Positions 20,921 to 34,611 are shown, counted from the stretch's first letter. The stretch is DNA of 64,000 nucleotides from an uncultured Cytophagia bacterium (GCA_964472785.1 CAYYMH010000004.1:66995-130994); one strand, 5' to 3'. The notes: generated by a model not told the origin, from the sequence alone. Numbers and translations are program-made.

Positions 20921-21084
20921 GATGTGCTCCTTTCGAAAATAATTACATTCAAAATTTAGTGAATCTTCTGCCACAATGTCTCGAAGACACCAAGAAAAAC
21001 GTTACTCCTTTTTTAACTTCGAGTCTTGGAGCCTTTGTGGCAAATAAAACTCTTGATAATTATAAACTTATTACAAATAAAAAT

Positions 21085-21137
21085 GGGACTGATTGCCACG
21101 CCTTTGAAAAAATACAAATGAATAGCCAATCAATCCC
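21085..21137 (-). terminator. Possible terminator or structured RNA between the porin and sod genes
   Basis: Minus strand GGGATTGATTG...CAATCAGTCCC stem followed by ATTTTTATTT; the loop is unusually long. Confidence 0.3.
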
Positions 21138-21146
21138 CTTAAAAAT

Positions 21147-22364
21147 TTAGAATCCTGAAACCATACCAAAAGTCATCCGATTCAAATCATTCTCCAAATC
21201 TCTGGTATATTCAGCAATCAGCCGCAAATTTGTCGATAACAGATAGGTTCCGCTCAACGTTGCGGTTTCATATTTTTTTGCGAGCTGACCATTGATGTGA
21301 AAGTCAACATCAGATTCCATTTTGTTGTACAAAAAGGTGAAATAATAACGTGACTTGTCTAATTGCGGTGAAAAAACAACTTCTGCCACCGTTCCTTTTG
21401 ACTCAATCTCTTTAGCATCCTCAATAAATAGCGGATTGCTATCTTTCCGAATCAGATACTGAGCGGTAATATCAATGGGCCCAATACTGATTGTAAAATC
21501 AGGTCCCATATACGATAATTCATTTTCTGCGTTAGCAACGACATTATCATCTTCTCCCGACACTTTTTCTTTACCCGTGTAATAGAATCCACCGATGCTC
21601 ATAAAATCACCGATGCTCTGATTGATCCGCACGCCAAAATTTTTGAACGAATCATTATCAAATTTTGTTGTTACATCAGCTTCCTGTTTTCCATTGCCAT
21701 TGACTACCATTCCGATTACACCGGTTCCGGTTTGTTCCACACCGTAAGCCAGCATCACTCCCCGATCATAAGCCAGATTTGTCCCGGATAATCCGAAATG
21801 TTGTTTGTAGATAAAGTAGTCTTCGAACGTTAAACGCAGCTCGCGTTTCATCAATGGATCTGAAGTTTGAAATTGTCCGACCATAATGTCCAAATTTGTT
21901 TTGAACACATTGTTAAAATGGATATACGCATCTTCGATTCCGGCAACCTCGCCCCGTTCAGACATGTAAAAATAGAAATAGTAGCCGATGTTTTTGTAAA
22001 GCGCTCCGCCGGACATGAATTTCAATCCCCAGGGCATCTGTAAATCTTTATCCACTTTCTGATCTTCGTCGTATTGCGCGTATGCATCAAAACGAACCGA
22101 GATCGGGAAGTCTTTGTTTAACCACAGTAAATCATCTCCGGCAGTCACGTAATCCCGCTCCTTTTCGTCTTCCTGGATAATAAAACCTTCGCCTGCAAAT
22201 TCATCTCCGTACGGTTTTAAGCGGGGAAATGGTGCATGGCAGGTTGTGCAGGAAATTTTATAACGGCGCGCAAACGCCGGTATTGCTTGAGAGCTTTGTG
22301 TAATGAAAAGTGAGCACACAAAAGTCACCAAAATAATGAACAATACTGATTTTTTAAATTCCAT
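21147..22364 (-). CDS. Outer-membrane porin-like beta-barrel with an N-terminal CxxCH (AIPAFARRY..CTTCH family)
   Basis: Signal peptide; IPAFARRYKISCTTCHAPFPRL; alternating beta-strand pattern; terminal Phe; GGAGG Shine-Dalgarno before ATG 22364. Confidence 0.75.
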   Translation of the reverse strand: MEFKKSVLFIILVTFVCSLFITQSSQAIPAFARRYKISCTTCHAPFPRLKPYGDEFAGEGFIIQEDEKERDYVTAGDDLLWLNKDFPISVRFDAYAQYDEDQKVDKDLQMPWGLKFMSGGALYKNIGYYFYFYMSERGEVAGIEDAYIHFNNVFKTNLDIMVGQFQTSDPLMKRELRLTFEDYFIYKQHFGLSGTNLAYDRGVMLAYGVEQTGTGVIGMVVNGNGKQEADVTTKFDNDSFKNFGVRINQSIGDFMSIGGFYYTGKEKVSGEDDNVVANAENELSYMGPDFTISIGPIDITAQYLIRKDSNPLFIEDAKEIESKGTVAEVVFSPQLDKSRYYFTFLYNKMESDVDFHINGQLAKKYETATLSGTYLLSTNLRLIAEYTRDLENDLNRMTFGMVSGF

Positions 22365-22576
22365 TATGACCTCCGTTAAATTTTTGATTACCAAACACTT
22401 TTTAAGAATCCGATAAATTGCCACAGATATTTTCATATAAACACGGATTTTAAAAAGTATCTATTACATTAAGTTTTTCAAATCATGATAAATCTGAAAA
22501 AATCCGTGTTAGTCCGTGGCAGGAAAAAAAGTGTTCGGCTGTGAGTTGAATTATCAGATTTTTTCGAAAAACACAA

Positions 22577-23956
22577 TTACTCGTAAACTTCGATCCACGT
22601 CGATGCCGTGTTGACCAGAATTCTTTCACTTTCCTCTTCGGGAACTCCCAAATATTTTGCCACAGGTTCAACTAATTTTTGGTAATACATTACAGCTTTA
22701 AACGTTACTTTACCGACAGGTATATCTTCGGGTAATTCCCAGGTGAATGTCTCAATTTTGGTTTCGCGCGGACCGATTCGATAATCCACACCAAGCGATG
22801 CTGTGTTCCACTGCATGATCGTCATCCGACCTTGCGGATCAAAATATGGCATGCGAAAAATCCGGTTCCCAATTGGCACGCCATCTCGCTGAACACCTTT
22901 AAAATCCGGGTCTTGTTTGGGAATGCCCATATCCTGATAAGCCAGCACATCCGCAGCTATGATATATTCTTCTCCTTCAAATCCTTTTTTATCCACCGGC
23001 AAATGGTACTCTTTTCCATTGGCATCTGTCGCTGTTACATGCAGCCACACAATGCGATCTTCGACTGAACCGGTCGGAAATTTATGGCCTGTTTTGGCAT
23101 TAAATAGCTGGACTTTAACAACGGCAACATCATCATACTCAATTTCCCGTTCCTCCGGATGCATCCTCAATTCTATCGTACCGGCGATTTTTCCAGGATC
23201 GTGGGCGCCATGAAACAGGTGTTGTGAAACCATACTCTCTTCAGCCATTTTTGCGTTTTTTCCCCATGCTTTGGGCATGTGACATTGATGGCACGGTACT
23301 CCCTCTTCAGCATAAGGTCCTTCTTTCCATTCAATGTGAGTTGATTTTACCCAAATACCAAAGGGCGACTTTTCGTTATGGCAATTCGCGCAAAACTCTG
23401 CCTGTTGCATAAAATCACTTTCTTCCGTGTCATGATGCGGCGATTCCAAACCGGGCTTGTTGCCCCATTTTTTCAGCCCCGGCTGCGACACATAACTGAA
23501 GTTGAAGGGTACATCTTCACCTTTGTAACTGTTAAAGGGTACATCTTCACCTTTGTAACTGTTAATGGTGTGACATACATCGCAGCTCACACTCTCGTTG
23601 GCTCGAGAATTTTCTTCAGGCCGTGGCGGTGGCACATCCCCGGCTAAAAATGCAAGCGGGGCATGGCAGCCGTTACAGCCATGGGATACAGACAAAAATT
23701 TCTCGTCCACTTTGCCGTGAGCAACTGCCAGATCGAAATATTCAATCTCGTCCCAGTGATGCGTATAAGCCTGCGACATCATCGACTGCTGCCATTGGTA
23801 ATAAATATCCACGTGGCAACTTTTGCACGCTTCCGGCTTTTCGTACTGATCGTACGATTTTGTGCCCAGCGCTTCTTCACCTGCAGGCAAATCCTGGCCG
23901 AATATTATCGCCGGACAAAATAACATCAGTAGCATCGAAATTTTTAATCGATTCAT
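22577..23956 (-). CDS. Periplasmic pentaheme c-type cytochrome
   Basis: Five CxxCH motifs (CKSCH, CNGCH, CDVCH, CANCH, CHQCH); signal peptide; C-terminal domain with GHKFPTG; AGGAG Shine-Dalgarno before ATG 23956. Confidence 0.88.
   Translation of the reverse strand: MNRLKISMLLMLFCPAIIFGQDLPAGEEALGTKSYDQYEKPEACKSCHVDIYYQWQQSMMSQAYTHHWDEIEYFDLAVAHGKVDEKFLSVSHGCNGCHAPLAFLAGDVPPPRPEENSRANESVSCDVCHTINSYKGEDVPFNSYKGEDVPFNFSYVSQPGLKKWGNKPGLESPHHDTEESDFMQQAEFCANCHNEKSPFGIWVKSTHIEWKEGPYAEEGVPCHQCHMPKAWGKNAKMAEESMVSQHLFHGAHDPGKIAGTIELRMHPEEREIEYDDVAVVKVQLFNAKTGHKFPTGSVEDRIVWLHVTATDANGKEYHLPVDKKGFEGEEYIIAADVLAYQDMGIPKQDPDFKGVQRDGVPIGNRIFRMPYFDPQGRMTIMQWNTASLGVDYRIGPRETKIETFTWELPEDIPVGKVTFKAVMYYQKLVEPVAKYLGVPEEESERILVNTASTWIEVYE
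23505..23565. repeat. Perfect 30-bp tandem duplication inside the cytochrome gene (NSYKGEDVPF x2)
   Basis: AAGGGTACATCTTCACCTTTGTAACTGTTA repeated at 23505 and 23535. Confidence 0.95.
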
Positions 23957-24120
23957 TTCAAGGCTCCTATTTAATTTTAGCACATAGTAATCCGTCGAAA
24001 AACGAATTTAAGAATAACGCTCAAAATTATTTTAAAAATTACACACATGTTCGACTGATGACTAACTTGTTGAACATTGACGTCTTACCTTTTAAGCAGA
24101 ACGCTGATCGCTAATTTAAT

Positions 24121-24882
24121 TTACAATAAAAGCCACAAGCTGACTCCCATGACGATCATTCCTACCATAACACCGAGAATCGGTACATGTTCAGAATCGA
24201 ATGATTTGGCTACTGGCACCAGTTCATCCAGGGAAATCGAAACCATAATTCCTGCGACTACCGCCAAAACCCACCCCAGTAAAGCGGATGATAAAAATGG
24301 TAATAAAATCAAGGCAGCGATGCCAGCGCCGATGGGTTCACTGACGCCAGACAAAAATGAATAAAAAAAGGCTTTTTTCCGACTACCGGTCGCAGCGTAA
24401 ATGGGCGCAGAGACAGCTAATCCTTCGGGAATATTGTGAATTGCAATGGCGATAGCAATTGCGAAACCCAAATTGATATCTTCCAAAGCCCCGGCGAAAG
24501 TAGCCAACCCTTCCGGGAAATTATGAATTCCGATTCCCACTGCAACCAGGATACCAGTGCGCATTAATTCGTCGCTGGTGCCATCTTGTTTGTGATCAAT
24601 GTGGCCAATGTATTCGTGTGGCAATAAGACATCAATCAAGAAAAAACTACCCATTCCGATAAAAAAGGCAATGTGGGCATTGAGGAAGCCAATATCTTGA
24701 ATACTGCCCTGAAGCAGCTCAACAAATGATACTAAAATCATCACGCCGGCAGAAAATCCGAGCGTGAAAGCCATAAATTTGGGTCCCGGTTTACGAACTG
24801 CCAGACCCAAAACACTGCCAATTGTTGTTGCCAGACCGGCGCCGGTTGTCAAGAGTAATGCAATAAATATCTCGTGCCCCAC
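24121..24882 (-). CDS. zupT: ZIP-family zinc transporter
   Basis: GFSAGVM, IGIHNFPEG and AIAIHNIPEG motifs; AAGGAG Shine-Dalgarno before GTG 24882. Confidence 0.92.
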   Translation of the reverse strand: MGHEIFIALLLTTGAGLATTIGSVLGLAVRKPGPKFMAFTLGFSAGVMILVSFVELLQGSIQDIGFLNAHIAFFIGMGSFFLIDVLLPHEYIGHIDHKQDGTSDELMRTGILVAVGIGIHNFPEGLATFAGALEDINLGFAIAIAIAIHNIPEGLAVSAPIYAATGSRKKAFFYSFLSGVSEPIGAGIAALILLPFLSSALLGWVLAVVAGIMVSISLDELVPVAKSFDSEHVPILGVMVGMIVMGVSLWLLL

Positions 24883-25018
24883 AAAAGCTCCTTTGCTTTT
24901 ATCCTTATTGTTAATGGAAAATTGATGTGCTGGGAAGTTAATCCGTAACATTTTAAAATCTAATATTTAAAGAAATAAATTACGCATTAACTCCCCCATA
25001 GTGATCGAAACAACGCGC

Positions 25019-25393
25019 TTACGCTTTCCACAAACCATGCAGATTACAATATTCGCGAGCTGATACATTATCAGCTTTAATCTTGAATGTTGCTTCGGGT
25101 TGATCGCCGGGTTTCAGAAATTTGCGGTACACTTTTCCGTCAGCAATTAATTCGATAAATTCGATATAATGCTTCTCCTCCATCGGATGGGCAACACTGC
25201 CAACTTTCACCGTGACTGAGTCCGCACTTTTTTCAATCACCGGCACGTGTTTTTCTTTTGCCGCGTCTACTGTATTTTCTTTGAGTAATTTCATCGGCTC
25301 TCCGCAGCAAACCAACTCACCTGCGCCGGTATGAAGCACTTCCACAATATTACCGCAAACTTCACACTTGTAAATCTGATTTAATGCTGTCAT
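25019..25393 (-). CDS. dfx: Desulfoferrodoxin (2Fe superoxide reductase)
   Basis: YKCEVCGN...[21 protein letters not shown] and YCNLHGLW motifs. Confidence 0.96.
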
Positions 25394-25442
25394 ATTTCTC
25401 CTCCTGATTTTATGGTTGATTGTTTCATTTAAAAAAGTGAAC

Positions 25443-25904
25443 TTAACTATTTTCTAGTTCTAATATTTTCACCAATTCTGCTGGTTCCAGACGGAACTTG
25501 CTACCTTTACCCTCAAAGAATCCATGCTCCCGAATCATGTGAACGTGGAGTTGTGAATATTGAATAGTTTTATCCAATTTTTTATTTTTTACATGGGCAA
25601 ATATTTTATGATGCAACCGTTTCTCACCAAACGGTGATGGCATCATGCCTCTGTCCCATCTAATTTTAACTGTGAAATCTCCCAAGTCAACTTCAGACTC
25701 CAGTCCTTTTTTGCCTTCTTCAATGAAATATTGTAATCGATCGGCAATCTGTTCACGTGTCACACCAAGTTTGTCCAATGTTCTCTGGTCAGCCTCGATA
25801 ATATCGTGAACGTGCCGACTATCATCTCCCAAAAACCCGTCTTTGGTGATGGCGCCGGGTTCAAATTCCTTTCGCTGAATTTTTTCATCCGGAGTTTGTT
25901 TCAT
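25443..25904 (-). CDS. Hypothetical protein, 153 aa
   Basis: Open ORF with an AAGGA Shine-Dalgarno; GFLGDD...DIIEAD and [11 protein letters not shown] motifs; no recognised family. Confidence 0.75.
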
Positions 25905-26111
25905 GGCAAATTTTCCTTTTTACTTACTTAATGGAATACACTTTTCTTTTGCCACGGATTCACACGGATTTTCACAGATATCAAACTGAAAAATAATATT
26001 TAGTATTCTCCCAAAAAATCTGTGCTTATCTGTGAAAATCAGTGGCAAAAAATTCAATGTTCTTTTGACTTTGTAAATCCTGTTCATCCTGTTATCCTGT
26101 CAAATATTAAA

Positions 26112-27221
26112 CTAAGCAAACGGATCGAAAAACGTTCGGTCGCCGGTGATTTTGTATTTTTCAAGGACTTTGATACACGCATTGATCATACCCGGACTAC
26201 CGCACAAATATCCCTGCACATTGGACGTGTCGATTTCTTTCAAATAGTTTTCAAGCGGTTCAGTAATCAGACCTGTTTCACCATTCCAGTCATCTTCTGG
26301 ATCAGGGCTGGAAAGCGCTGGTACAAAATTAAAGTTGGGAATATTTTTCTCGAATGCCTTCATTTCATCGACGTAAAACAGATCCCTTTTCTGATTCGCA
26401 CCAAAAAAGTATGTCACCTTCCGATCGATTTTTTCATTGTCAATCTTATGTAAAAGGGAAACCATCGGCGCCATGCCCGAACCACCAGCGATCATAATAA
26501 TTTCCCCATCACCTTCACGCAGGTAAAAATCCCCCATTGGACCGACGATCTTCACATCATCGCCCTCTTTCAAATGTTCATGTACCCAGGTTGTACAAAT
26601 ACCGCCTTCAACCAAGCGGATCATCAGCTCAACATATTTTTTTTCAAAACTGGGAGAGCTCGCAGAATAGGCACGGGACACGCTTTCTTTAACGCCGTCA
26701 TACGGCTGTGTTTGCAGTTGAACGTACTGACCTGCTTTGAAATTAATTTCTGGCGGATCAATCAAATCCAACCGCAGCAGTTTGATATCATAAGTCAAAT
26801 CCTTTAGCGCAGCAACTTTCGTTTTAAACTCTTTAATATTGAAAAGCTCATCCGGGATTTCGATTTTAATATCCTGCTTAACCTTCACCTGGCAGGCCAA
26901 GCGAACTTCATCCTGAATTTCTTCTTTCGTAAGCATCGGCTCTTCCGTGGGAAGCAGCGGTCCGCCACCTTCAACAATTTTGCATTTACAGTAAGCACAG
27001 GTACCCCGTCCGCCACATGCGGATGGTAAAAATATTTTCTGAGAACTGAGCGATGACAGCAACGTCGCTCCACCAGTCACTTCCAATTCTTTCTCATCAT
27101 TGATGGTAATTTTACACTCGCCGTAGTTTGCCAAATATCGTTCAGCAATAACCAGTAAAATCGCTAAAACCCCACTTATGCCAACCATTGCGGCTGTTGT
27201 CAAAATGATTTTCGCAACCAT
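26112..27221 (-). CDS. nqrF: NqrF-like 2Fe-2S/FAD/NAD(P)H oxidoreductase with an N-terminal membrane anchor
   Basis: N-terminal TM; SACGGRGTCAYC...C; SRAYS; AGGSGMAP; CGSPGM. Confidence 0.82.
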   Translation of the reverse strand: MVAKIILTTAAMVGISGVLAILLVIAERYLANYGECKITINDEKELEVTGGATLLSSLSSQKIFLPSACGGRGTCAYCKCKIVEGGGPLLPTEEPMLTKEEIQDEVRLACQVKVKQDIKIEIPDELFNIKEFKTKVAALKDLTYDIKLLRLDLIDPPEINFKAGQYVQLQTQPYDGVKESVSRAYSASSPSFEKKYVELMIRLVEGGICTTWVHEHLKEGDDVKIVGPMGDFYLREGDGEIIMIAGGSGMAPMVSLLHKIDNEKIDRKVTYFFGANQKRDLFYVDEMKAFEKNIPNFNFVPALSSPDPEDDWNGETGLITEPLENYLKEIDTSNVQGYLCGSPGMINACIKVLEKYKITGDRTFFDPFA

Positions 27222-27242
27222 GTTTTTATCCCAATTTTCGCA

Positions 27243-27833
27243 TTATTGAATTTGTACAATCCCTGAAAAACCGATAAACGCCATTGCCATGATGCCTGTT
27301 ATAATCAGCGCTATTCCGGCGCCCTGCAAAGCCGAGGGGATCTGCTTTTCGTTGATCCGTTGCCTGATGCCTGCCATTGCTAAAATTGCCAGCATCCAGC
27401 CGATCCCACTTCCGGCGCCAAAAAACACGCTCTGGATGAACGTATATTTTCGGATAACCATAAAAAGTGACACGCCCAGAATCGCACAGTTCACAGTAAT
27501 CAGCGGCAGAAATATCCCGAGATTCAAATAAAGCACTTCGGAGAACCGCTCAATAATCATTTCCAGCAACTGCACAGCAGAAGCAATGATAATAATAAAC
27601 GTAATGTAGCGCAGGTACTCAATCTGTAGCGGCTCCAGCACATAATAATAAACGATGTAATTTAAAGCCGAGGTAATGGTTAAAACGAAAACAACGGCTA
27701 ATCCCAAACCGAGCGAGGTTTTCACCTGTTTTGAAACGGAGAGAAATGAACACATCCCCAAAAAATAAACCAAAAGAATATTCCCTGTAAAAATGGACGC
27801 GAAAAAAATAATCCAGGGTGATAATCCTTCCAT
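27243..27833 (-). CDS. nqrE: Na+-NQR subunit E-like
   Basis: FLGMCSFLSVSKQVKTSLGLG and LPLITVNCAILG motifs. Confidence 0.88.
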   Translation of the reverse strand: MEGLSPWIIFFASIFTGNILLVYFLGMCSFLSVSKQVKTSLGLGLAVVFVLTITSALNYIVYYYVLEPLQIEYLRYITFIIIIASAVQLLEMIIERFSEVLYLNLGIFLPLITVNCAILGVSLFMVIRKYTFIQSVFFGAGSGIGWMLAILAMAGIRQRINEKQIPSALQGAGIALIITGIMAMAFIGFSGIVQIQ

Positions 27834-27844
27834 CGAATTAACTC

Positions 27845-28489
27845 CTATTTTTCAGAATGAGAAATTTTCATGACAGATAAATTATTGCTCACCCAAATAA
27901 ACAGCGCGAGCATAAAGAAACCGCCGGGTGCCATAATCATAAACGCCCACTGAACCCAGCCTTCCGAATATCCGATCGCATGCATCAATGGATCCATAAC
28001 TTGAAATCCCAGTATAGTACCGAAGCCTAACAATTCTCTGAAGAATGCAATCACTAACAGCACATACGAGTAGCCGACACCGGACATAACGCCATCCAAA
28101 AAAGCCATTGAAGGCTTGTTTGACGAGGCGAACGCCTCCAGTCTGCCCATGATGATGCAGTTGGTAATGATAAGGCCGACATACGGCCCCAACGCTTTAC
28201 TGATATTGGGAACGTAAGCCTTCAGCACCACATCCACGATCACGACAAAGCTGGAGATGATCAGGGTCTGCACCATCATGCGTATTCGGGACGGAATAAT
28301 ATTTCTAAGCAGAGACACAGTGAGCGAAGAAAAAGCAGTCACAAAAATCAGTCCCAGTCCCATGATTAGTGTGTTCAGAAAAATATTGGTCACCGCCAGA
28401 GTCGAGCAAATTCCCAAAATTTGCACCGTGACGGGGTTATTACTCCACAAATCTTCTTTAATTATTTCCAGTGAGTTTTTCGCTGGCAT
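27845..28489 (-). CDS. nqrD: Na+-NQR subunit D-like
   Basis: NNPVTVQILGICSTLAVT and VGLIITNCIIMGRLEAFA motifs. Confidence 0.88.
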   Translation of the reverse strand: MPAKNSLEIIKEDLWSNNPVTVQILGICSTLAVTNIFLNTLIMGLGLIFVTAFSSLTVSLLRNIIPSRIRMMVQTLIISSFVVIVDVVLKAYVPNISKALGPYVGLIITNCIIMGRLEAFASSNKPSMAFLDGVMSGVGYSYVLLVIAFFRELLGFGTILGFQVMDPLMHAIGYSEGWVQWAFMIMAPGGFFMLALFIWVSNNLSVMKISHSEK

Positions 28490-28643
28490 AGTTTTCCTCG
28501 AACATTTATTGATGAATTATAGAAATCTTTTTTCACAGTTAAATTTCAATTTATTGCCAAAAAGCTATGAGATACAAAGTTTTCATTTCACATCACTGAC
28601 TTCCTTTGTTTGAGCCTCCGTGCCTTAATGGCATAAACACAAA

Positions 28644-29411
28644 TTATGACAATTTTGCTCGGATTAAATCTTTGTTTTTTTCGATCAACTTCAAATAAAA
28701 TTTCAAATCTGTTTCCAGCATCTTGAGTACACCATTGCAGGTCTGCGTTGCACCGGTGATCGCTTGAAAGCTATTGGTTGATTTTTCAAAATTCGTCTGC
28801 TTTTTTTCACCTACCATGACAAAAGCCGGCTCCGCACTCTGTTCATCCTTTAATTTAGTCAGATCAAGATTTCGGAAATAATATTTAAATTCCTTCTCAA
28901 GAATTCGCGCGCCTAATCCCGGTGTTTCAACCTGTTCGGTAAAATCAATACCCACCATTTTCCTCAAATCTGCTGAAATCGCACCTACCCCAGTAATGGT
29001 ACCCCAGAGACCTTTTCCCTTCATTCGAAACCCGTAAGCAGTGATGTCATCATTCTCATCCAAACGAACGTAAATCAGCACGGAATCACCCCATGAAAGA
29101 AAGCTATTTTTGAGCAGACTTCTCAAGTCTTCAGGAAATGATAATTTTACAGTCTCCAACTTTTCATTATATTTTTTCAGCACCTGATCTTCTTGCCACG
29201 GTATGTCACTGGTCGTGGCGGTCTTCGACAAGTCTTGCTCTTGAACGCCATCCGGAAAAATATTGAATGAATAGAGAATCGATTTATACTGCAAAATTTT
29301 TTGATTTTGAACAATTTGATCTCTGGTTTTTTCATTCACATAAGCCAAAGCAGATATGAACACTGCAGTGATAATCACCATAAAAATAACAGTAAAGATC
29401 GCTTTTCTCAT
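28644..29411 (-). CDS. nqrC: NqrC/RnfG-like FMN-binding subunit
   Basis: N-terminal TM; GKGLWGTI, ETPGLGARI and ITGAT (covalent FMN motif). Confidence 0.85.
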   Translation of the reverse strand: MRKAIFTVIFMVIITAVFISALAYVNEKTRDQIVQNQKILQYKSILYSFNIFPDGVQEQDLSKTATTSDIPWQEDQVLKKYNEKLETVKLSFPEDLRSLLKNSFLSWGDSVLIYVRLDENDDITAYGFRMKGKGLWGTITGVGAISADLRKMVGIDFTEQVETPGLGARILEKEFKYYFRNLDLTKLKDEQSAEPAFVMVGEKKQTNFEKSTNSFQAITGATQTCNGVLKMLETDLKFYLKLIEKNKDLIRAKLS

Positions 29412-29412
29412 A

Positions 29413-30429
29413 TTATCCCTTTTTCGTTGACTTATTCTTTTTATAACTATTTACACTATAATCAATAATAGGTCCGAACATATTTCCCAACAGCACAGCA
29501 AACGTCAAACCTCCGGCAAAAAGTGAAAATGATTTAATAATAACGGTTAACAATCCAATCAGGGCAGCATAAATCCACTTTCCAATATCGGTTCGTGCCG
29601 ATGAAACCGGGTCAGTGACCATATAAAAGCCGCCGAGAACTGCGCCACCGGAAAGGAGTCCAAATAACGGACTCGACACTTGATCCGGAAAAATGAGGTG
29701 AAAAATAAAATGAGATAAAACAAACGAAACAAAGAAACTAACCACGAGTTTCCAGTTAGCATTTTTTTTGAAAACGATGTAGAGTCCGCCGATCAGCAAT
29801 AGCAATGCTGATGTTTCGCCTAAAGAACCGCCCCCGATTTGAGTGATTTCACCAAACTTCTCAAACTGTCCATTGATATTTCCCAGGAAAAGTTGCCAAT
29901 AATTGGGCAAAGTTGTTGCGCCGGATTTGAATGCGCTGGCTGGTGTTGCCGATGTTATCGAAGAAAGATAGTCTCCGGCTGCCGAAAATCTCCAGCTTGC
30001 GAACCCAGCCGGAAAGTCTGAAAAATTAGCAGCAGGAACCCAGATATTTGTCATGTGCACCGGAAACGTAATATAGACAAAGGCGCGACCGACTAATGCC
30101 GGATTGAACGGATTATTACCAAATCCACCGAACGCCATTTTTCCGAACATAATGCCGAACAATGCGCCAAGAACAACCATATAAAAAGGAAGTGTCGGCG
30201 GCACGATTAACCCGTACAACATCCCGGTGACCAGAGCCGCTTCTGTTATTTTGCCATTTTTTCCGCGCACAAAAAACCATTCGGTTACCACGCACGTGAT
30301 TATTGACAGTGCAACAATCGCCAGGCTCCGCCAACCGAAAAAATAGATTCCACCGACCAATGCCGGAAAAAGTGCCATAACCACATTGCGCATGACTTTC
30401 TGTTTTTGAAAATCCAATTTTAATATCAT
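29413..30429 (-). CDS. nqrB: NqrB/RnfD-like membrane subunit (short, RnfD-length)
   Basis: FGGFGNNPFNPALVGRAF, ITSATP (FMN site), GGSLGETS and TDPVSS motifs; 338 aa. Confidence 0.85.
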   Translation of the reverse strand: MILKLDFQKQKVMRNVVMALFPALVGGIYFFGWRSLAIVALSIITCVVTEWFFVRGKNGKITEAALVTGMLYGLIVPPTLPFYMVVLGALFGIMFGKMAFGGFGNNPFNPALVGRAFVYITFPVHMTNIWVPAANFSDFPAGFASWRFSAAGDYLSSITSATPASAFKSGATTLPNYWQLFLGNINGQFEKFGEITQIGGGSLGETSALLLLIGGLYIVFKKNANWKLVVSFFVSFVLSHFIFHLIFPDQVSSPLFGLLSGGAVLGGFYMVTDPVSSARTDIGKWIYAALIGLLTVIIKSFSLFAGGLTFAVLLGNMFGPIIDYSVNSYKKNKSTKKG

Positions 30430-30479
30430 TTTATTCCTTCATTATAAAAGAATTTACATATTACCAGATCGTTATCGCA

Positions 30480-30827
30480 TTAAAATGTAATGACTTCATA
30501 TCCCTTTTCAATGTATCGCCGAATACTCGGATGACCGGACATCTCATCACACAGCGTCAAATCCTGCTCAAGCGCAGCATCAAGAGCGCCTGTTTTGGCA
30601 GCGCATGCTTTGCACACGCAGTCGATCAATTCGATCTTTTTGATTTTTTGGTATAAATTTGCAAAGGGTTTTGCAGGATCAGCTAATTCTTTTATTTGCT
30701 TTGTTGCAGTGCCTTCGATGATTATTTTGACGTCGTAATTATTTTCATGCAAATCAATCGCATTCAAAAGGACATGCGCAAAGCACATGGGTTCACCGTT
30801 GAATGCAAAAAGCGCATATCGTTTCAT
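30480..30827 (-). CDS. DsrE family protein
   Basis: FAFNGEPMCFAHVLLNA, CVCKACA and MSGHPS motifs; likely start ATG 30827 after GAGG. Confidence 0.8.
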   Translation of the reverse strand: MKRYALFAFNGEPMCFAHVLLNAIDLHENNYDVKIIIEGTATKQIKELADPAKPFANLYQKIKKIELIDCVCKACAAKTGALDAALEQDLTLCDEMSGHPSIRRYIEKGYEVITF

Positions 30828-30903
30828 TATTACACCTCTCCTAAATATGATACCTAAAATTCTAAAATGAAAAATTTCACTTCGCTTCAATTTGTTATTT
30901 ACT

Positions 30904-30962
30904 ATGGAGTGAATCGCCTTTATGCGATTCATTTTGCAATGCATAAAGGCATTGCACTCCAT
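30904..30962. repeat. REP doublet with ATGGAGTG ends
   Basis: ATGGAGTG-AATCGC CTTTAT GCGATT-C...TGCAATGC ATAAAG GCATTG-CACTCCAT; two inverted hairpins. Confidence 0.7.
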
Positions 30963-31102
30963 TCATTTAAAAAATCAACAATTTAACATTTGAAGTAATA
31001 AACTCAATTTAGAAATTTAGGTGATACGCTAAGTACGCTAACAGCTAAAAGTTGAGTGCAATCCGATATTCGGAATGCACTCTTTATCAAATCAAACATG
31101 AA

Positions 31103-31678
31103 TTACCAGTTCTCACCTAATAATTCAAAATAAGCCTGCGGATGCGCGCACGCCGGGCAGGTTTGCGGGGCTTCTGTGCCTTCGTGCAGGTAACCACAGT
31201 TCAAACAACGCCACACAACTTTTTCTTCTCTTTTGAAGACTTTCTTGGCTTCAATGTTATTCAGTAAATCACGATATCTTTTTTCATGCTGCTTTTCCGC
31301 AACCGACACCGCTTCAAATATTTTTGCTACTTCTTCGAATCCTTCTTCACGCGCAACATTAGCAAACTCTGGATACATTGTCGTCCACTCATAATTCTCG
31401 CCGCCGGCTGCTGCCATCAAATTTTCAGCAGTTGTGCCAATCACACCAGCCGGGAAAGATGCCTGAATTTCAGTTTCGCCACCTTCCAGATGCTTAAAAA
31501 AGCGTTTGGCATGTTCGCGTTCCTGATTTGCTGTTTCTTCAAAAATTTGCGCAATCTGAACATAGCCCTCTTTTTTCGCTTTGCTGGCGAAATAAGTGTA
31601 ACGGTTTCGCGCCTGGGATTCACCCGCAAATGCGGCTAATAAATTTTTCTCTGTTTGAGTGCCTCTTACACTTTTCAT
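31103..31678 (-). CDS. rbr: Rubrerythrin
   Basis: [22 protein letters not shown] and C-terminal CLNCG...CPAC rubredoxin-like domain. Confidence 0.96.
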
Positions 31679-31760
31679 TCACGAACCTCCTGATTAATCG
31701 TTCATAGTTTAACATGTTATTTTTATTTTGTTTTTTTATAATTTAACGATTTTTATTGAA

Positions 31761-32759
31761 TTAATCAAGCTGTACTTTATCTTTGAAAACATTATGGACA
31801 TAATACGTATAAAGCAAAACCAACGGCATACCGATGATGGCAATGATCAGCATAATTTTCAACGTTAATTCCGAAGACGATGCGTTGTAAATGGTGAGGC
31901 TTAATACCTCATTGGTGGCTCTCACCAAATTCGGAAAATGGATCGAACCAACAATACCAAACAATCCGATAAACGAAAGCGAAGTCATCTGAAATGCACG
32001 TTTATCAGCTTCTTTCTTTAATGCGGATTTTAGCAACCACCAGCCAGCAAGTACGACAATTGTCGAAATCCATGCGAATAGACTTTTTCCTGCACCCGGC
32101 ACATAGATAAATGCTAAAACCGATGAAAGCAGGAAAAGAACGATAAAAGAATTCCATAATTTTCTGCTGACCTTCCTGGCTTCGGTTTGAATCTCTCCGG
32201 AATTTTTTAACGCCGCATACGTGCTGCCCTGCAATAGTATCGCATTCAAACCAAGCAGACCCACAGCCAGCGGAAACGGTCTTAGCAGGGTGAAGAAATT
32301 TCCGGTAAATTCCATACGACCATCCAAAGGAACCCCGACAATCACATTGCCGAGCGCGACGCCGTAGAGCAGAGATGGCAAAAAACTACCGACAAGAAAC
32401 GTCCACTCCCACACGTTCTGTCGTTCCGAATCATAGGCATAAAACTCAATTGAAGCCGCCCGTAAAATCAGCGCAAAAAGAACCAGCATCAGCGCCAAAT
32501 AAAAACCGCTGAAAACTGTAGCATAGGCATGCGGAAATGATGCGAACAGCGCACCACCGCCAGCCAATAACCAGACTTCGTTTCCGTCCCAAAACGGTCC
32601 GATGGTGTTGAGCAACGCGCGTTTCTGCTTTTCATTTTTCGCTAAAACACGAAATAGCGACCCGATTCCCAAATCAAATCCGTCGAGCAAGGCGTATCCC
32701 ATTAAGAGGACGCCGATGAGAATGTACCAAATCGTTCTGAAAAGATCATGCAATTCCAT
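31761..32759 (-). CDS. cydB: Cytochrome bd ubiquinol/menaquinol oxidase subunit II
   Basis: DGFDLGIG and PFWDGNEVWL motifs. Confidence 0.95.
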   Translation of the reverse strand: MELHDLFRTIWYILIGVLLMGYALLDGFDLGIGSLFRVLAKNEKQKRALLNTIGPFWDGNEVWLLAGGGALFASFPHAYATVFSGFYLALMLVLFALILRAASIEFYAYDSERQNVWEWTFLVGSFLPSLLYGVALGNVIVGVPLDGRMEFTGNFFTLLRPFPLAVGLLGLNAILLQGSTYAALKNSGEIQTEARKVSRKLWNSFIVLFLLSSVLAFIYVPGAGKSLFAWISTIVVLAGWWLLKSALKKEADKRAFQMTSLSFIGLFGIVGSIHFPNLVRATNEVLSLTIYNASSSELTLKIMLIIAIIGMPLVLLYTYYVHNVFKDKVQLD

Positions 32760-32774
32760 TTCCGTCCTCCTCTT

Positions 32775-34100
32775 TTAATATTGATAAGTTGAAATTTTAG
32801 CCGGGCCTTTTTTGACTATTTTTAACATGAGTTTGATAAAAGCATAAAAAAGTATTGAATAAATCAAAATGAACATAATGAGCGTAAATAAGATCTGACC
32901 GGCAGGCACAACTTTTGAAGCCGCATCCGACGTCTTCAATATGCCATAAACTGCCCAGGGCTGTCTTCCGATTTCCGCAGCTAACCATCCAGTTTCGTTT
33001 GCAATATGAGGCAAAGGAATCGAAAATAAAAGCACGAACAAATACCATTTGGTGTTAATCAGTTTTTTTCGGACTAAAAGATAGATACCGATAAATGAAA
33101 TGAGGATAAAATAGACACCTAAGCCGATCATTATGTGGTAAACACCAAAAGTGACCAGAACCGGCGGGCGCTCATCAACAGGGAATTCCTTTAAGCCGAG
33201 AATCTCTGCATTCGTGTCTCCGAACACGAACAGGCTCAATAATTTTGGAAAACCAACCTCCAGATGCGTGACTTCATTTTCCTCATCCGGAATTCCAAAC
33301 ACGCTCAAATTGGCGCCGCGTTGCGTTTCCCACAATCCTTCATACGCTGCTAATTTAGCGGGTTGGGTTTCTGCCACCTGAACAGCATGCGCATGCCCGG
33401 TAAAAAGCTGAAAAATGCTGGTGACAATGAAAATTACCAGCGAGATTGTGATCAATCTTTTCGCCTGTTCGGTAAATTGTTTTTTGATCAAATACCAGGC
33501 ACTAATGCCGGCAGCCATCAATGAACCGGTTATCCAACTGGCAACGATCACATGAATGAATCGCTCAATAGTGGAATGATTAATCGCAGCCTCCCAAAAA
33601 TTTGTGAGTACTGCACGACCACCGACCATTTCAAAACCGGCTGGTGTTTGCATGAATGAATTGGCGATTATAATCCATAATCCGGACAGATGAGCGCCAA
33701 AAAAAACCATAAATGCGGAGAAGAAATACATTTTTGGGGACACTTTATTCCTGCCGAAAACCATCACCCCCAGAAAGATCGACTCCATAAAAAAAGCTAA
33801 AATACCTTCGGCTGCCAACGGCGCTCCGAAAACATCGCCGACCACCCGCGAATATTCTGACCAGTTCGTACCAAAGGCAAATTCCAGTGTAATACCGGTA
33901 GCCGTTCCCAGTACAAAAATCAGCGCCACCATTTTAACTAAAAAATCGGATATTGTTTTGTAGATTTCATCATTGCGTTTGAGATACAATCCTTCAACAA
34001 TGAGCAGAATGAGCGTAAGTCCAAGAGTCAGCGGTGGAAAAATAAAATGAAAACCGGCAGCAACCCCAAACTGAATTCGGGACAGCATAACAACATCCAT
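32775..34100 (-). CDS. cydA: Cytochrome bd oxidase subunit I
   Basis: HFIFPPLT, EFAFGTNW, QPAKLAAYEG and GWLAAEIGRQPW motifs. Confidence 0.96.
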   Translation of the reverse strand: MDVVMLSRIQFGVAAGFHFIFPPLTLGLTLILLIVEGLYLKRNDEIYKTISDFLVKMVALIFVLGTATGITLEFAFGTNWSEYSRVVGDVFGAPLAAEGILAFFMESIFLGVMVFGRNKVSPKMYFFSAFMVFFGAHLSGLWIIIANSFMQTPAGFEMVGGRAVLTNFWEAAINHSTIERFIHVIVASWITGSLMAAGISAWYLIKKQFTEQAKRLITISLVIFIVTSIFQLFTGHAHAVQVAETQPAKLAAYEGLWETQRGANLSVFGIPDEENEVTHLEVGFPKLLSLFVFGDTNAEILGLKEFPVDERPPVLVTFGVYHIMIGLGVYFILISFIGIYLLVRKKLINTKWYLFVLLFSIPLPHIANETGWLAAEIGRQPWAVYGILKTSDAASKVVPAGQILFTLIMFILIYSILFYAFIKLMLKIVKKGPAKISTYQY

Positions 34101-34130
34101 GGATCACTCCAATTTAGTTAATCAATTCAT

Positions 34131-34550
34131 TTATTTAGTTTGCATTTCTTTGTCAAGGCAATCTTTGCAAATACCTTTAAAATATCCGTGTACTTCCTCA
34201 ATCTTGTGTTCGCCTGAAATAATCGTATTCAGATGAGGACACTCAATATCGATGTCAATAATTTTCGAACATCGTTTGCATAAAAAATGGTGATGATTTT
34301 GAGTTACAATATCATAACGATGTTCCGAGCCTGTGATTGTCAATGTATTAACCAAGCCTTTTTTATCAAACACGTCTAATGTATTGTAGATCGTTGTTTT
34401 TGATAAAGTGGGCACCTTATCATACAGCGCCGCATAAATCATGTCCGCTGTTGGATGCTCGTGTTTTTGTAGCAGATATTCCAAAATTTTTATCCGCTGG
34501 AACGTTGGCTTTATTCCCCGATGAAGTAACATATTCTTCAAATTTTGCAT
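34131..34550 (-). CDS. fur: Fur/PerR family transcriptional repressor
   Basis: HPTADMIY, TIYNTL, HHHFLCKRC and CKDC motifs; PerR-like given its neighbours (inference). Confidence 0.88.
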   Translation of the reverse strand: MQNLKNMLLHRGIKPTFQRIKILEYLLQKHEHPTADMIYAALYDKVPTLSKTTIYNTLDVFDKKGLVNTLTITGSEHRYDIVTQNHHHFLCKRCSKIIDIDIECPHLNTIISGEHKIEEVHGYFKGICKDCLDKEMQTK

Positions 34551-34611
34551 GTTAACCCACTTTCACGGTGTTTTATCTATAATTTATGAAAATTGATCGG
34601 GCTTTTCCGAT

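What the first reader, a model, noticed from the sequence alone, without database searches (positions are those of the whole stretch)
26112..30429. Rnf/Nqr hybrid locus: Nqr-type D/E/F with a short RnfD-like B subunit and no A subunit
NqrD (NNPVTVQILGICSTLAVT) and NqrE (FLGMCSFLSVSK) are Nqr-type. The B subunit is only 338 aa and begins like RnfD (VMRNVVMALFPAL), without the longer N-terminal part of canonical NqrB. The F subunit (369 aa) looks like a phthalate/aromatic-oxygenase-reductase-type module with a TM anchor. Established model: Na+-NQR arose from Rnf by recruiting such a reductase. This locus looks like an intermediate architecture, and its electron acceptor is undefined.
Basis: partly seen in the sequence, partly recalled or inferred. 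Interest (0 to 1): 0.6.

Follow-up and report, generated by a model that had tools for sequence, protein, structure and literature searches.

The report
NqrA-less NQR-type pump with new subunit
This operon encodes a membrane redox pump related to the sodium-pumping NADH dehydrogenase (Na+-NQR) that lacks subunit A, carries an extra conserved protein of unknown fold, and belongs to a large, uncharacterised sister family found in many anaerobes next to oxygen-defence genes.

Summary
Five co-oriented genes (B, C, D, E, F) sit at 26112-30429. There is no nqrA or rnfC in the locus or in the 93.5%-complete genome. B lacks the two NqrB-specific segments. This is not a one-off hybrid. It belongs to a large family: 540 NqrF relatives were found and 80 loci were inspected, from at least 14 phylum labels. 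In B, D, E and concatenated trees the family is a clade of its own, sister to canonical Na+-NQR. It is nested neither in NQR nor in Rnf. X follows F in 79 of 80 loci that have room for it. It co-occurs with short F in all 33 carrier genomes of the phylum. It has no Pfam family and no PDB fold match. All cofactor ligands of the pump core are conserved. Host genomes sampled from other phyla lack MenA and cytochrome bd. Rubredoxin, rubrerythrin, desulfoferrodoxin or flavodiiron genes flank 30 of 90 loci, against 0 of 36 NQR and Rnf control loci. Best guess: an NADH-driven ion pump that delivers electrons to rubredoxin-type oxygen-defence proteins. The acceptor is inferred, not shown. NqrA-less operons were noted in print before but never characterised.

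The parts
29413..30429 (-). B subunit (NqrB/RnfD family), 338 aa. It lacks the NqrB N-terminal stretch and the TMH1-2 insert.
   Evidence: T162 (the FMN attachment site) is T in 71 and S in 5 of 76 family members. E50, D273 and D323 align with V. cholerae NqrB E144, D346 and D397.
28644..29411 (-). C subunit (NqrC/RnfG family), 255 aa, with an FMN_bind domain.
   Evidence: T222 is T in 72 and S in 8 of 80 family members.
27845..28489 (-). D subunit (NqrD type), 214 aa.
   Evidence: NF006777 246.7 bits, over its cut-off of 235. C28 and C111 are present in 81 of 81 members and D132 in 81 of 81.
27243..27833 (-). E subunit (NqrE/RnfA), 196 aa.
   Evidence: C28 and C116 are present in 81 of 81 members. 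E95 is E in 73 and D in 8 of 81.
26112..27221 (-). F subunit, a short NqrF type of 369 aa: TM helix, 2Fe-2S ferredoxin domain, FAD/NADH (FNR) domain.
   Evidence: TIGR01941 302.7 bits, over its cut-off of 295. Pfam: Fer2, FAD_binding_6, NAD_binding_1. C69, C75, C78, C110 and R183-A184-Y185-S186 are invariant in 30 sequences.
25443..25904 (-). X, a conserved 153-aa soluble protein with no known family or fold. Proposed sixth subunit or dedicated partner.
   Evidence: X follows F in 79 of 80 loci with room for it. It is present in all 33 short-F genomes of the phylum. AF2 model pLDDT 92.9. No PDB fold match. No Pfam family.
25019..25393 (-). Desulfoferrodoxin (superoxide reductase). Context gene, same strand.
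   Evidence: TIGR00320 225.8 bits.
30480..30962 (-). DsrE-like ORF directly upstream of B. Context gene; its start is uncertain.
   Evidence: PF02635 30.3 bits over residues 72-160. A DrsE_2 relative lies near 5 of 90 loci.
31103..31678 (-). Rubrerythrin. Context gene.
   Evidence: NF045767 315.7 bits.
31761..34100 (-). Cytochrome bd oxidase subunits II and I (cydB 31761-32759, cydA 32775-34100). Context genes.
   Evidence: PF02322 315.1 bits and PF01654 526.4 bits.
34131..34550 (-). Fur-family regulator at the head of the same-strand gene row. Context gene.
   Evidence: PF01475 88.3 bits.

Best explanation
The locus is a complete six-gene operon, B-C-D-E-F-X, of a third branch of the Rnf/NQR superfamily. 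Shown by sequence: it has the NQR-type NADH input module (F: FAD and 2Fe-2S) and the conserved four-subunit pump core (D/E with the four cysteines of the intramembrane 2Fe-2S cluster; C and B with the flavinylated threonines; the acidic residues of B, D and E). It has no NqrA/RnfC cap and lacks the NqrB segment that anchors that cap. Inferred from solved NQR and Rnf: electrons run NADH -> FAD(F) -> 2Fe-2S(F) -> 2Fe-2S(D/E) -> FMN(C) -> FMN(B) -> riboflavin(B), and this drives cation (probably Na+) export. Proposed: X binds the soluble part of F, taking over the anchoring role that NqrA has in V. cholerae. Proposed: the last electron step goes to a small cytoplasmic iron protein, namely rubredoxin or the rubredoxin-like domains of rubrerythrin and desulfoferrodoxin, and not necessarily to a quinone. 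On that reading the complex is a membrane-bound, energy-conserving NADH:rubredoxin oxidoreductase that feeds the O2/ROS-detoxifying enzymes of anaerobes. In this organism, which has cydAB next door and MenA-like genes, menaquinone remains a possible alternative or additional acceptor.
For: Family and integrity. Gene order B-C-D-E-F-X is kept in loci from at least 14 phylum labels. Cofactor ligands are conserved in 76-81 family members. The genome holds ApbE flavin transferase, 2 matches, best 277.5 bits. Separate clade: concatenated B+D+E tree, 59 loci x 726 columns, rooted on Rnf, gives (f4,(NQR 100*, short 99*) 95*) 100*. The single-gene trees agree. No A: none in the genome. None among 27 of 62 upstream ORFs scanned. 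0 of 5 other-phylum host genomes has nqrA over its cut-off. By my reading, 28 of 33 short-F genomes of the phylum have no nqrA. The other 5 have nqrA elsewhere; in the 3 I fetched (G026, G039, G042) it heads a separate canonical operon. X: adjacency in 79 of 80 loci, median gap 12 bp. Co-occurrence in 33 of 33 genomes. 2065 cluster representatives at E<=1e-3. Complex prediction B+F+X: verdict 'weak support', ipSAE 0.40 (runs 0.35, 0.40, 0.43), best of 3 controls 0.00. The control in which F was replaced while B and X were kept also scored 0.00. The mark was reached by 116 of 157 solved complexes and 2 of 215 mismatched pairs, but at 0.60 or under by only 18 of those 157 and by both mismatches that passed. 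The runs agree in at least 72% of contacts and the partner's pLDDT is at least 74. Own alignments and three chains differ from the calibration. Published anchor role: the NqrF soluble domain is held on NqrA, and NqrA is held by NqrB Phe34-Leu54 (PMC9325719, passages). Acceptor not generally a quinone: menA over its cut-off in 0 of 5 host genomes from other phyla. The futalosine marker PF02621 is in 1 of 5, and cytochrome bd in 0 of 5. One of the genomes with none of these is a closed chromosome. Link to O2 defence: within 5 kb, rubredoxin lies at 19 loci, rubrerythrin at 18, desulfoferrodoxin at 17, flavodiiron protein at 8, a rubrerythrin-like protein at 8 and peroxiredoxin at 6 of 90 loci. 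At least one of these lies at 30 of 90 loci, against 0 of 18 canonical NQR and 0 of 18 Rnf loci with equal flanks. The association occurs under 8 phylum labels.
Against: No experiment or expression data exist, and no RNA run is listed. The rubredoxin acceptor rests on gene neighbourhood only. 60 of 90 loci show none of these neighbours, although many contigs are short. Neighbourhood could mean co-regulation under oxidative stress rather than electron transfer. In this genome the single rubredoxin gene lies about 29 kb away, and cydAB is adjacent. Two MenA-like genes score 101.3 and 98 bits against a cut-off of 102.15. So a quinone route is open in this organism. The complex score is weak, and no interface was returned. 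X has no recognisable cofactor motif, and its one well-kept cysteine is a serine in the window's copy. One locus with room for it lacks X (L094). Trees are quick searches with SH-aLRT support only. The careful search did not finish. Canonical NQR was sampled from two phyla only. Ion specificity is not testable from sequence here.
Confidence: 0.4

Rival explanations
1. It is an NqrA-less NADH:menaquinone oxidoreductase. Riboflavin in B reduces membrane menaquinone directly, and in this organism the quinol feeds the adjacent cytochrome bd oxidase. That would make an NADH-to-O2 scavenging chain that also pumps ions.
For: cydAB lies on the same strand 1.3 kb upstream, and a CydA fragment also lies near the operon in L012. 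MenA-like genes score 101.3 and 98 bits in the genome. NqrA carries no cofactor and has no assigned catalytic role, and ubiquinone is listed under NqrB in the solved complex (PMC12174285, passages).
Against: B lacks the N-terminal region that forms the quinone-analogue inhibitor pocket of NqrB. V. cholerae G140-G141 align with C and V in the window's B. Of 5 host genomes from other phyla, 0 has menA over its cut-off and 0 has cytochrome bd. CydA lies near only 1 of 89 related loci. Quinone therefore cannot be the acceptor for the family as a whole.
Confidence: 0.25
2. One reading: the locus preserves the ancestral intermediate architecture on the path from Rnf to Na+-NQR.
For: The branch from the Rnf node is shorter for the short family than for canonical NQR. 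Stem lengths are 0.24 and 0.92. This explains why Rnf models score well on B and E. B lacks the derived NqrB insertions.
Against: The family is a sister clade, not a grade leading to NQR (B tree; concatenated tree). NqrA is held to derive from RnfC, so the common ancestor must have had a C/A subunit, and its absence here is a loss. X is a gain. An operon type with an RnfC-like cap plus an NqrF-like input (f4; L100, L112) branches just outside NQR+short and fits an intermediate better. However, its F nests inside the short-F clade.
Confidence: 0.12
3. It is a decaying remnant of a canonical nqr operon that lost nqrA and no longer works.
For: Missing subunit. C, E and B fall under their NQR equivalog cut-offs.
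Against: All six reading frames are intact. Every cofactor ligand is kept in 76-81 relatives. The same architecture recurs in 80 loci from many phyla with 35-90% identity. The family forms its own old clade.
Confidence: 0.02
4. It is a functional NADH-driven pump of this family, but the acceptor is something else: another soluble redox protein, a flavin or thiol system, or a different acceptor in different hosts. X would then be an assembly or regulatory factor, not a subunit.
For: Other recurrent neighbours are nitroreductase (7 of 90 loci), ferritin/Dps (7), NifU-like (6), cysteine desulfurase-like (6) and DsrE/DrsE (5). X has no cofactor motif. The complex support is only weak.
Against: The tight F-X coupling (median gap 12 bp; 66 of 79 gaps are 30 bp or less) and the strict co-occurrence fit a stoichiometric partner better than a general factor. 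The rubredoxin-type neighbours are the most frequent ones.
Confidence: 0.2

Closest known systems
Na+-translocating NADH:quinone oxidoreductase (Na+-NQR, NqrABCDEF; V. cholerae structures such as 7xk3)
   Same: NqrF-type NADH input (TM helix, 2Fe-2S, FAD). D/E cysteines, flavinylation threonines in B and C, and the acidic residues of B. D and F pass the NQR equivalog cut-offs. Sister position in trees.
   Different: No NqrA. B lacks the N-terminal stretch and the TMH1-2 insert. F is about 40 residues shorter (median 368 against 411) and lacks model positions ~173-200. There is an extra gene X. Hosts are mostly anaerobes, and several lack quinone genes.
Rnf complex (RnfCDGEAB; C. tetanomorphum 7zc6, A. 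vinelandii 8ahx, A. woodii 9eri)
   Same: Same four-subunit core. B has the length of RnfD and passes the rnfD subfamily cut-off. The profile of the family's B scores RnfD 222-238 bits, about as well as V. cholerae NqrB at 243 bits.
   Different: No RnfC and no RnfB in the locus. NADH enters where ferredoxin enters in Rnf. All core subunits fall outside the Rnf clade (100* split). Carriers usually have a true Rnf as well.
NqrBCDEF operons lacking NqrA, noted in Thermotoga thermarum / Pseudothermotoga lettingae (PMC4148951), Clostridium ultunense and Alkaliphilus metalliredigens (PMC5924567) and 'Ca. Izimaplasma' ZiA1 (PMC6256511)
   Same: Same gene order without A. The authors likewise state that the partner of NADH is unknown (passages).
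   Different: Those notes are single-genome remarks. They contain no phylogeny, no mention of a sixth gene and no link to oxygen defence. I did not fetch those operons, so homology to this family is presumed, not tested.
Soluble NADH:rubredoxin oxidoreductase (NROR) systems of anaerobes
   Same: Proposed physiological role: NADH electrons pass to rubredoxin, and from there to rubrerythrin, superoxide reductase and flavodiiron proteins (established knowledge; the papers appear as a listing only).
   Different: NROR is a soluble flavoprotein unrelated in sequence and conserves no energy. The role proposed here is inferred from neighbourhood only.

Membership tests
Canonical Na+-NQR (NqrABCDEF) | NqrA subunit encoded with the operon or elsewhere in the genome | tested here: not met
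   nqrA HMM: 0 matches at E<=0.01 in the 93.47%-complete genome. The ORF upstream of B is DsrE-like.
Canonical Na+-NQR (NqrABCDEF) | NqrB with the N-terminal stretch that anchors NqrA and forms the inhibitor pocket, and nqrB equivalog score | tested here: not met
   Both NqrB-specific segments are absent. nqrB scores 191.5 bits against a cut-off of 349.9. The role of the stretch comes from PMC9325719.
Canonical Na+-NQR (NqrABCDEF) | NqrF: TM helix + 2Fe-2S + FAD/NADH domain | tested here: met
   TIGR01941 302.7 bits, at or over its cut-off of 295. Three Pfam domains. Cys and RAYS residues are invariant.
Canonical Na+-NQR (NqrABCDEF) | Core cofactor ligands (D/E cysteines, FMN threonines in B and C) | tested here: met
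   D C28 and C111 and E C28 and C116 in 81 of 81 members. C T222 is T or S in 80 of 80. B T162 is T or S in 76 of 76.
Canonical Na+-NQR (NqrABCDEF) | Subunits fall inside the canonical NQR clade | tested here: not met
   Sister clade: short 99*, NQR 100*. NQR was sampled from two phyla only.
Canonical Na+-NQR (NqrABCDEF) | Quinone as electron acceptor | not testable with these tools
   Indirect only: quinone and cytochrome bd genes are missing in sampled hosts, while MenA-like genes and cydAB are present in this genome.
Rnf (RnfCDGEAB) | RnfC (FMN, 2x[4Fe-4S], NAD+ site) | tested here: not met
   The best rnfC match in the genome is 52.1 bits against a cut-off of 245.95, and all matches are partial.
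Rnf (RnfCDGEAB) | RnfB polyferredoxin input subunit | tested here: not met
   It is not in the locus; F occupies the position after E. The rest of the genome was not searched for rnfB.
Rnf (RnfCDGEAB) | Core subunits fall inside the Rnf clade | tested here: not met
   A 100* split separates Rnf from short+NQR+f4 in the B, D and concatenated trees.
NqrA-less NqrBCDEF-X family (defined here) | Order B-C-D-E-F without A, short B, short F (~368 aa), X directly after F | tested here: met
   The window's F-X gap is 207 bp, against a family median of 12 bp.
NqrA-less NqrBCDEF operons of the literature (Pseudothermotoga, C. ultunense) | Orthology to those published operons | not tested
   Those operons were not among the loci fetched. 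Only the published gene order was compared.

The most novel reading that the evidence does not exclude
Strict anaerobes in more than ten phyla carry a third, so far uncharacterised branch of the Rnf/NQR pumps. It has dispensed with the NqrA/RnfC cap and acquired a subunit with a new fold (X). It works as an energy-conserving NADH:rubredoxin oxidoreductase, so that detoxifying O2, H2O2 and superoxide through rubrerythrin, superoxide reductase and flavodiiron proteins is coupled to Na+ export instead of wasting the redox energy.
Probability: 0.3. Interest if true: 0.85.

Novelty: new variant of a known kind. Interest (0 to 1): 0.62.

Why it matters
Rnf and Na+-NQR are treated in the passages I read of current reviews (PMC12174285, 2025; PMC4014512, 2014) as the two forms of this pump. 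The NqrA-less form appears only as a puzzled remark in a few genome papers. This work shows three things. The form is a coherent, old and widespread sister family. It has its own extra protein. Its genomic link is to oxygen defence rather than to quinone respiration. That turns the remark into a testable question: what accepts the electrons when there is neither NqrA/RnfC nor a quinone? If the acceptor is rubredoxin-type, anaerobes would gain energy from oxygen detoxification. The family would also be a natural experiment on what NqrA is for, since its function in V. cholerae is still unassigned.

Tried and rejected
- X as a remnant of NqrA or RnfC: hhalign probability is 0.09% against 8 NqrA and 0.34% against 8 RnfC/RnfC-like sequences. 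Rejected as far as sequence profiles can see.
- X against known families and folds. Pfam gave nothing better than E 0.005 in single members of 40. The NCBIfam scan of the window's own X gave none. The PDB sequence profile had a best E of 0.017, to a designed repeat protein. Foldseek on PDB gave 0 matches at E<=1e-3. VIA-align against 48,161 chains gave a best Z of 3.0. ESM Atlas returned only 'hypothetical protein' clusters, one with DUF7919 on 13% of its members.
- Fused forms of X. The one 'longer' hit, P0121 (489 aa), is F residues 1-331, a 9-residue linker, then X from its own Met. It lacks the last 38 residues of F, including invariant residues, so it is probably a deletion or misassembly and was not counted.
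- Other long representatives carry X next to rubrerythrin, nitroreductase, rubredoxin, peroxiredoxin or aldo-keto-reductase pieces. In the one I checked (P0158), the rubredoxin starts with its own Met 6 codons after X and then goes out of frame. These were read as run-through gene calls that show adjacency, not as fusions.
- The orphan X homologue in G097 sits among TonB-receptor and unknown genes, which is uninformative.
- No RNA holder is listed for the operon. Only DNA runs of microbial-mat metagenomes hold it, and read laying was not used.
- The promoter and terminator scan of 24900-34700 gave numbers near shuffled expectation and no clear terminator between F and X.
- The careful (bootstrap) tree of B+D+E did not finish in 500 s (one search was lost), so the quick tree is reported.
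- Literature. 'nqrBCDEF' gave 5 papers. 'lacks NqrA' with Rnf and Nqr gave 0. Six phrasings of 'without NqrA' gave only mutant studies. Nqr + rubrerythrin + Rnf + oxygen + NqrA gave 2 papers, neither making the link in title or abstract (listing only; passages of one, PMC5924567, were read for nqr terms). Rubredoxin + NqrF gave one paper, on Prevotella aerotolerance (listing only).
- Supplements of the papers were not opened.

Full report
**1. What is in the window**

Six genes lie head to tail on the minus strand:

| Gene | Coordinates | Length (aa) |
|---|---|---|
| B | 29413-30429 | 338 |
| C | 28644-29411 | 255 |
| D | 27845-28489 | 214 |
| E | 27243-27833 | 196 |
| F | 26112-27221 | 369 |
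| X | 25443-25904 | 153 |

- B passes the rnfD subfamily cut-off (259.6 against 207.05 bits). It fails nqrB (191.5 against 349.9) and aligns to nqrB only from its residue 37 to model position 123.
- D passes an NqrD equivalog (246.7 against 235) and fails rnfE (170.9 against 213.4).
- E scores almost the same on nqrE (224.4) and rnfA (219.6), both just under their cut-offs.
- C is a weak NqrC/RnfG relative with an FMN_bind domain.
- F passes nqrF (302.7 against 295) in two stretches that skip model positions ~173-200. It has the Fer2, FAD_binding_6 and NAD_binding_1 domains.

The ORF 50 bp upstream of B is DsrE-like, so there is no room for a longer B or for an A gene.

In the window's genome (116 contigs, 93.47% complete):
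- The nqrA model finds nothing at E<=0.01.
- The rnfC model finds only partial matches of 52 bits or less.
- The Rnf-Nqr membrane-subunit model finds only D and E of this locus.

An alignment of B with relatives, 6 canonical NqrB, 2 'f4' B and 5 RnfD shows that B lacks two segments that all 6 canonical NqrB rows have. These are a ~45-residue stretch before TMH1 and a ~31-residue insert between TMH1 and TMH2.

**2. It is a family, not an oddity**
- A scan of one genome per species with B gave 7 related loci.
- A scan with an alignment of F gave 540 relatives, of which the best 80 were kept.
- In these loci the order B-C-D-E-F recurs with 35-90% identity per subunit.
- Median lengths are 333 aa for B and 368 for F, against 411 and 411 in 20 canonical NQR loci.

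Record titles place the 87 loci as follows:

| Label | Loci |
|---|---|
| Spirochaetota | 31 |
| Planctomycetota | 17 |
| Bacillota | 4 |
| Lentisphaerota | 3 |
| Moduliflexota | 2 |
| Kiritimatiellota | 2 |
| Thermodesulfobacteriota | 2 |
| Verrucomicrobiota | 2 |
| Calditrichota, Krumholzibacteriota, Bacteroidota, Cloacimonadota, Atribacterota, Fibrobacterota | 1 each |
| Unassigned (5 titled KSB1) | 18 |

No A or RnfC gene was found in these loci or their genomes.
- I listed 62 ORFs upstream of B. I scanned 27 of them with Pfam, mostly those on the same strand as B. None was NqrA or RnfC.
- Five host genomes from other phyla have no nqrA over its cut-off (0 of 5). The two weak matches lie in ordinary Rnf operons.

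**3. Survey of the window's phylum (167 genomes)**
- By my reading of the nqrF table, 33 genomes carry the short F type (frames of ~370 aa, two stretches).
- Many others carry canonical F (~410 aa, ~700 bits).
- 4 genomes (family f4) carry a third type.
- From the nqrA table, 28 of the 33 short-F genomes have no nqrA at E<=1e-30. The window's own order (families f1, f2, f3) has 0 of 20 other genomes with nqrA.
- The 5 that have nqrA (G026, G027, G028, G039, G042) have it elsewhere. In the three I fetched (G026, G039, G042) it heads a separate canonical operon.
- G026, G027, G039 and G042 also have a true RnfC. At least these four genomes therefore hold Rnf, canonical NQR and the short type side by side.
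- True Rnf is also present in 12 of 13 other genomes of the window's family and in all of G001, G002, G005, G252 and G253. Rnf operons lie in G003 and G004 as well.
- The window's own genome shows none. This may be real or may be a gap in the assembly.

**4. Phylogeny**

Rows were labelled by operon architecture.
- short: 39 of 76 complete related loci, picked to spread over phyla, plus the window.
- NQR: 20 loci from the window's phylum and from the phylum of G001.
- Rnf: 17-18 loci.
- f4: 2 loci.
- Rnf with an FNR-like last gene: 2 loci.

All trees are quick IQ-TREE searches with SH-aLRT support.

| Tree | Result |
|---|---|
| B | Rnf is split from the rest at 100*. The rest is short (99*), NQR (100*) and f4 (100*) in an unresolved three-way fork. 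|
| D | Rnf, then f4, then short+NQR (94). NQR 99*; short as one group only 77. |
| E | (Rnf, f4) against (short+NQR) at 96*. NQR 100* on a long stem; short unresolved. |
| F | One row under 280 aa dropped. Canonical F (92) against short F (85), with the two f4 F inside a 98* short subset. |
| B+D+E concatenated | 59 loci x 726 columns, rooted on Rnf: (f4 100*, (NQR 100*, short 99*) 95*) 100*. |

For the concatenated tree, six long-branch rows were left out (L125, L144, L145, L047, L138, L124). The short group was thinned to 28 rows and NQR to 14.

The careful search with bootstraps was unfinished after 500 s. The claim therefore rests on SH-aLRT and on a limited sample of canonical NQR.

Within these limits the short family is a sister of canonical NQR. 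It is not nested in NQR or in Rnf. Its stem from the Rnf side is short (0.24 against 0.92), which explains the good Rnf scores of B and E.

**5. The sixth gene, X**
- Position: X follows F on the same strand in 78 of 80 related loci that have at least 550 bp after F. It lies 1.4 kb away in one more locus and is missing in one (L094). The median gap is 12 bp, and 66 of 79 gaps are 30 bp or less. In the window the gap is 207 bp.
- Co-occurrence: in the phylum, X is found in 35 of 167 genomes. These are all 33 short-F genomes, one orphan (G097) and one fragment (G024). X is in 0 of the 4 f4 genomes.
- Not found at canonical loci: the ~155-aa ORFs after canonical nqrF are CBS-domain or hemerythrin proteins, not X (4 checked).
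- Family size: the family is large and unnamed. There are 1923 proteins at E<=1e-3 among the candidates scored, and every source name among the 120 listed is 'hypothetical protein'. There are 2065 representatives at 50% clustering, 1066 of them at E<=1e-10.
- Structure: an AlphaFold2 model from 40 sequences is confident (pLDDT 92.9, pTM 0.85). It has three helices, a four-stranded sheet and two more helices. No PDB match was found, no Pfam family, and no profile likeness to NqrA or RnfC.
- Conserved residues: G26, D28, R30, D39, G86, P91, K100, F129, G132 and R138 are invariant. H122 and H127 are nearly so.
- Complex prediction of B+F+X: the verdict was 'weak support'.
  - ipSAE was 0.40 (runs 0.35, 0.40, 0.43). 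The best of 3 controls was 0.00.
  - The mark was reached by 116 of 157 solved complexes and 2 of 215 mismatches. At 0.60 or under it was reached by only 18 of those 157 and by both mismatches.
  - The runs agree in at least 72% of contacts, and the partner's pLDDT is at least 74.
  - The job used my own alignments and three chains, unlike the calibration.
  - The control that kept B and X but replaced F scored 0.00. This points to F as the predicted contact, but no interface was returned.
- The short family has lost NqrA and that NqrB stretch together. A small protein that holds F would fill the gap. This is inference.

**6. The pump core looks functional**

In 76-81 family members:
- D C28 and C111 and E C28 and C116 are present in all 81.
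- C T222 is T in 72 and S in 8 of 80.
- B T162 is T in 71 and S in 5 of 76.
- D D132 is present in 81 of 81.
- E E95 is E in 73 and D in 8.

B E50, D273 and D323 are 93-99% kept. They align with V. cholerae NqrB E144, D346 and D397.

The four cysteines and the FAD motif of F are invariant in 30 sequences. The genome has two ApbE flavin-transferase matches.

**7. Which acceptor?**

Five host genomes from other phyla were tested (G002, G003, G252, G253, G005):
- 0 of 5 has menA over its cut-off; two have sub-threshold UbiA-type matches.
- 1 of 5 has the futalosine-pathway marker PF02621, at 35.5 bits.
- 0 of 5 has cytochrome bd subunit I.
- G252 lacks all three, and its locus comes from a record titled as a chromosome.

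Quinone is therefore unlikely to be the acceptor for the family as a whole.

The window's organism differs. It has MenA-like genes at 101.3 and 98 bits against a cut-off of 102.15, and cydAB lies next to the operon.

I clustered all flanking ORFs of 48 aa or more within 5 kb of 90 loci and named the recurrent clusters by Pfam:

| Neighbour family | Loci of 90 |
|---|---|
| Rubredoxin | 19 |
| Rubrerythrin | 18 |
| Desulfoferrodoxin | 17 |
| Flavodiiron protein | 8 |
| Rubrerythrin-like, 155 aa | 8 |
| Nitroreductase | 7 |
| Ferritin/Dps | 7 |
| Peroxiredoxin | 6 |
| NifU-like | 6 |
| Cysteine-desulfurase-like | 6 |
| DrsE | 5 |

- At least one of rubredoxin, rubrerythrin, desulfoferrodoxin, flavodiiron protein, the rubrerythrin-like protein or peroxiredoxin lies at 30 of 90 loci.
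- The same search around 18 canonical NQR and 18 Rnf operons found 0 and 0. These had mean usable flanks of 9.4 and 9.8 of 10 kb, and many came from the same genomes.
- The association occurs under 8 phylum labels. Kin are not independent, so I give no P value.

The window shows a same-strand row: Fur-family regulator, cydA, cydB, rubrerythrin, DsrE-like ORF, B-C-D-E-F, X, desulfoferrodoxin. A ZIP transporter and, about 4 kb further on, a superoxide dismutase follow on the same strand.

Electrons must leave the riboflavin of B towards something of higher potential than NADH. The most economical candidates are the rubredoxin-type iron centres that these neighbours either are or need. This is a hypothesis from neighbourhood. 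Co-regulation without electron transfer would give the same pattern. In this genome the only rubredoxin gene lies about 29 kb from the operon.

**8. What is known**

NqrBCDEF without NqrA was remarked on in the following, each time with the acceptor called unknown:
- Thermotoga thermarum and P. lettingae (PMC4148951, 2014; passage).
- C. ultunense, P. lettingae and Alkaliphilus metalliredigens (PMC5924567, 2018; passages).
- An NqrBCDEF was also listed for 'Ca. Izimaplasma' ZiA1 (PMC6256511; passage).

The evolutionary study of 2014 (PMC4014512) and the 2025 review (PMC12174285) do not treat this form in the passages I read. I did not read either paper in full, nor their supplements.

My searches found no paper in the held library that does any of the following:
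- describes the family's phylogeny;
- describes a sixth gene;
- links the form to rubredoxin-type proteins.

**9. Verdict**

The locus is a member of a widespread, uncharacterised sister family of Na+-NQR that lacks the cap subunit and has its own extra protein. Its status as a distinct, probably functional NADH-driven pump is well supported (about 0.8). X as a bound partner of F is plausible (about 0.5). A rubredoxin-type acceptor is the best single guess (about 0.35-0.4). Menaquinone is the main rival for this particular organism.

Noticed in passing
L100 (G049:C19:24500-36000) and L112 (G050:C49:9500-19000): A further hybrid operon occurs in one family (f4) of the window's phylum. It has an RnfC-like first gene (478-493 aa; rnfC 235 and 217 bits; the 2x[4Fe-4S] region is kept). 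Then come an NqrB-like B that keeps the N-terminal stretch (nqrB 294 bits), C, D, E and a short NqrF-like F (276 bits). There is no X. It branches just outside NQR+short in the B+D+E tree, but its F nests within short F. It would have an NADH site at both ends, so its reaction is unclear.
   Followed up: partly
L123 (G145:C1:530700-538000) and L131 (G152:C3:822500-829800): Rnf-type operons (C-D-G-E-A) whose last gene is a 284-287-aa plant-type ferredoxin-NADP reductase-like protein, not RnfB.
   Followed up: no
Whole genome G000: The window's genome has no RnfC and no Rnf membrane subunits, while 12 of 13 other genomes of its family have a true RnfC. This is either a loss or an assembly gap (completeness 93.47%).
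   Followed up: no
window 25905-26111: The F-X spacer is 207 bp here, against a family median of 12 bp. It holds short repeated words and no clear terminator. Possibly a small insertion.
   Followed up: partly
window 20192-36738: A long same-strand row of redox and oxygen-defence genes surrounds the operon: a DUF255 thioredoxin-domain protein, a Fur-family regulator, cydAB, rubrerythrin, desulfoferrodoxin, a ZIP transporter, a multihaem cytochrome and an Fe/Mn superoxide dismutase with a long N-terminal extension.
   Followed up: partly
L103 (G039:C87:20000-34800): A canonical nqr operon in which about 5.6 kb with five ORFs (520, 318, 471, 225 and 339 aa) lies between nqrE and nqrF.
   Followed up: no
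P0122 (885 aa), P0148 (2506 aa), P0258 (945 aa): Long proteins with 3-4 stretches that match the X profile and no Pfam family. Their nature is unknown.
   Followed up: no
L146 5897-6397 (G097:C68): An orphan, divergent X homologue (99.6 bits) in a genome with canonical NQR and no short F. It lies among TonB-receptor and unknown genes.
   Followed up: partly
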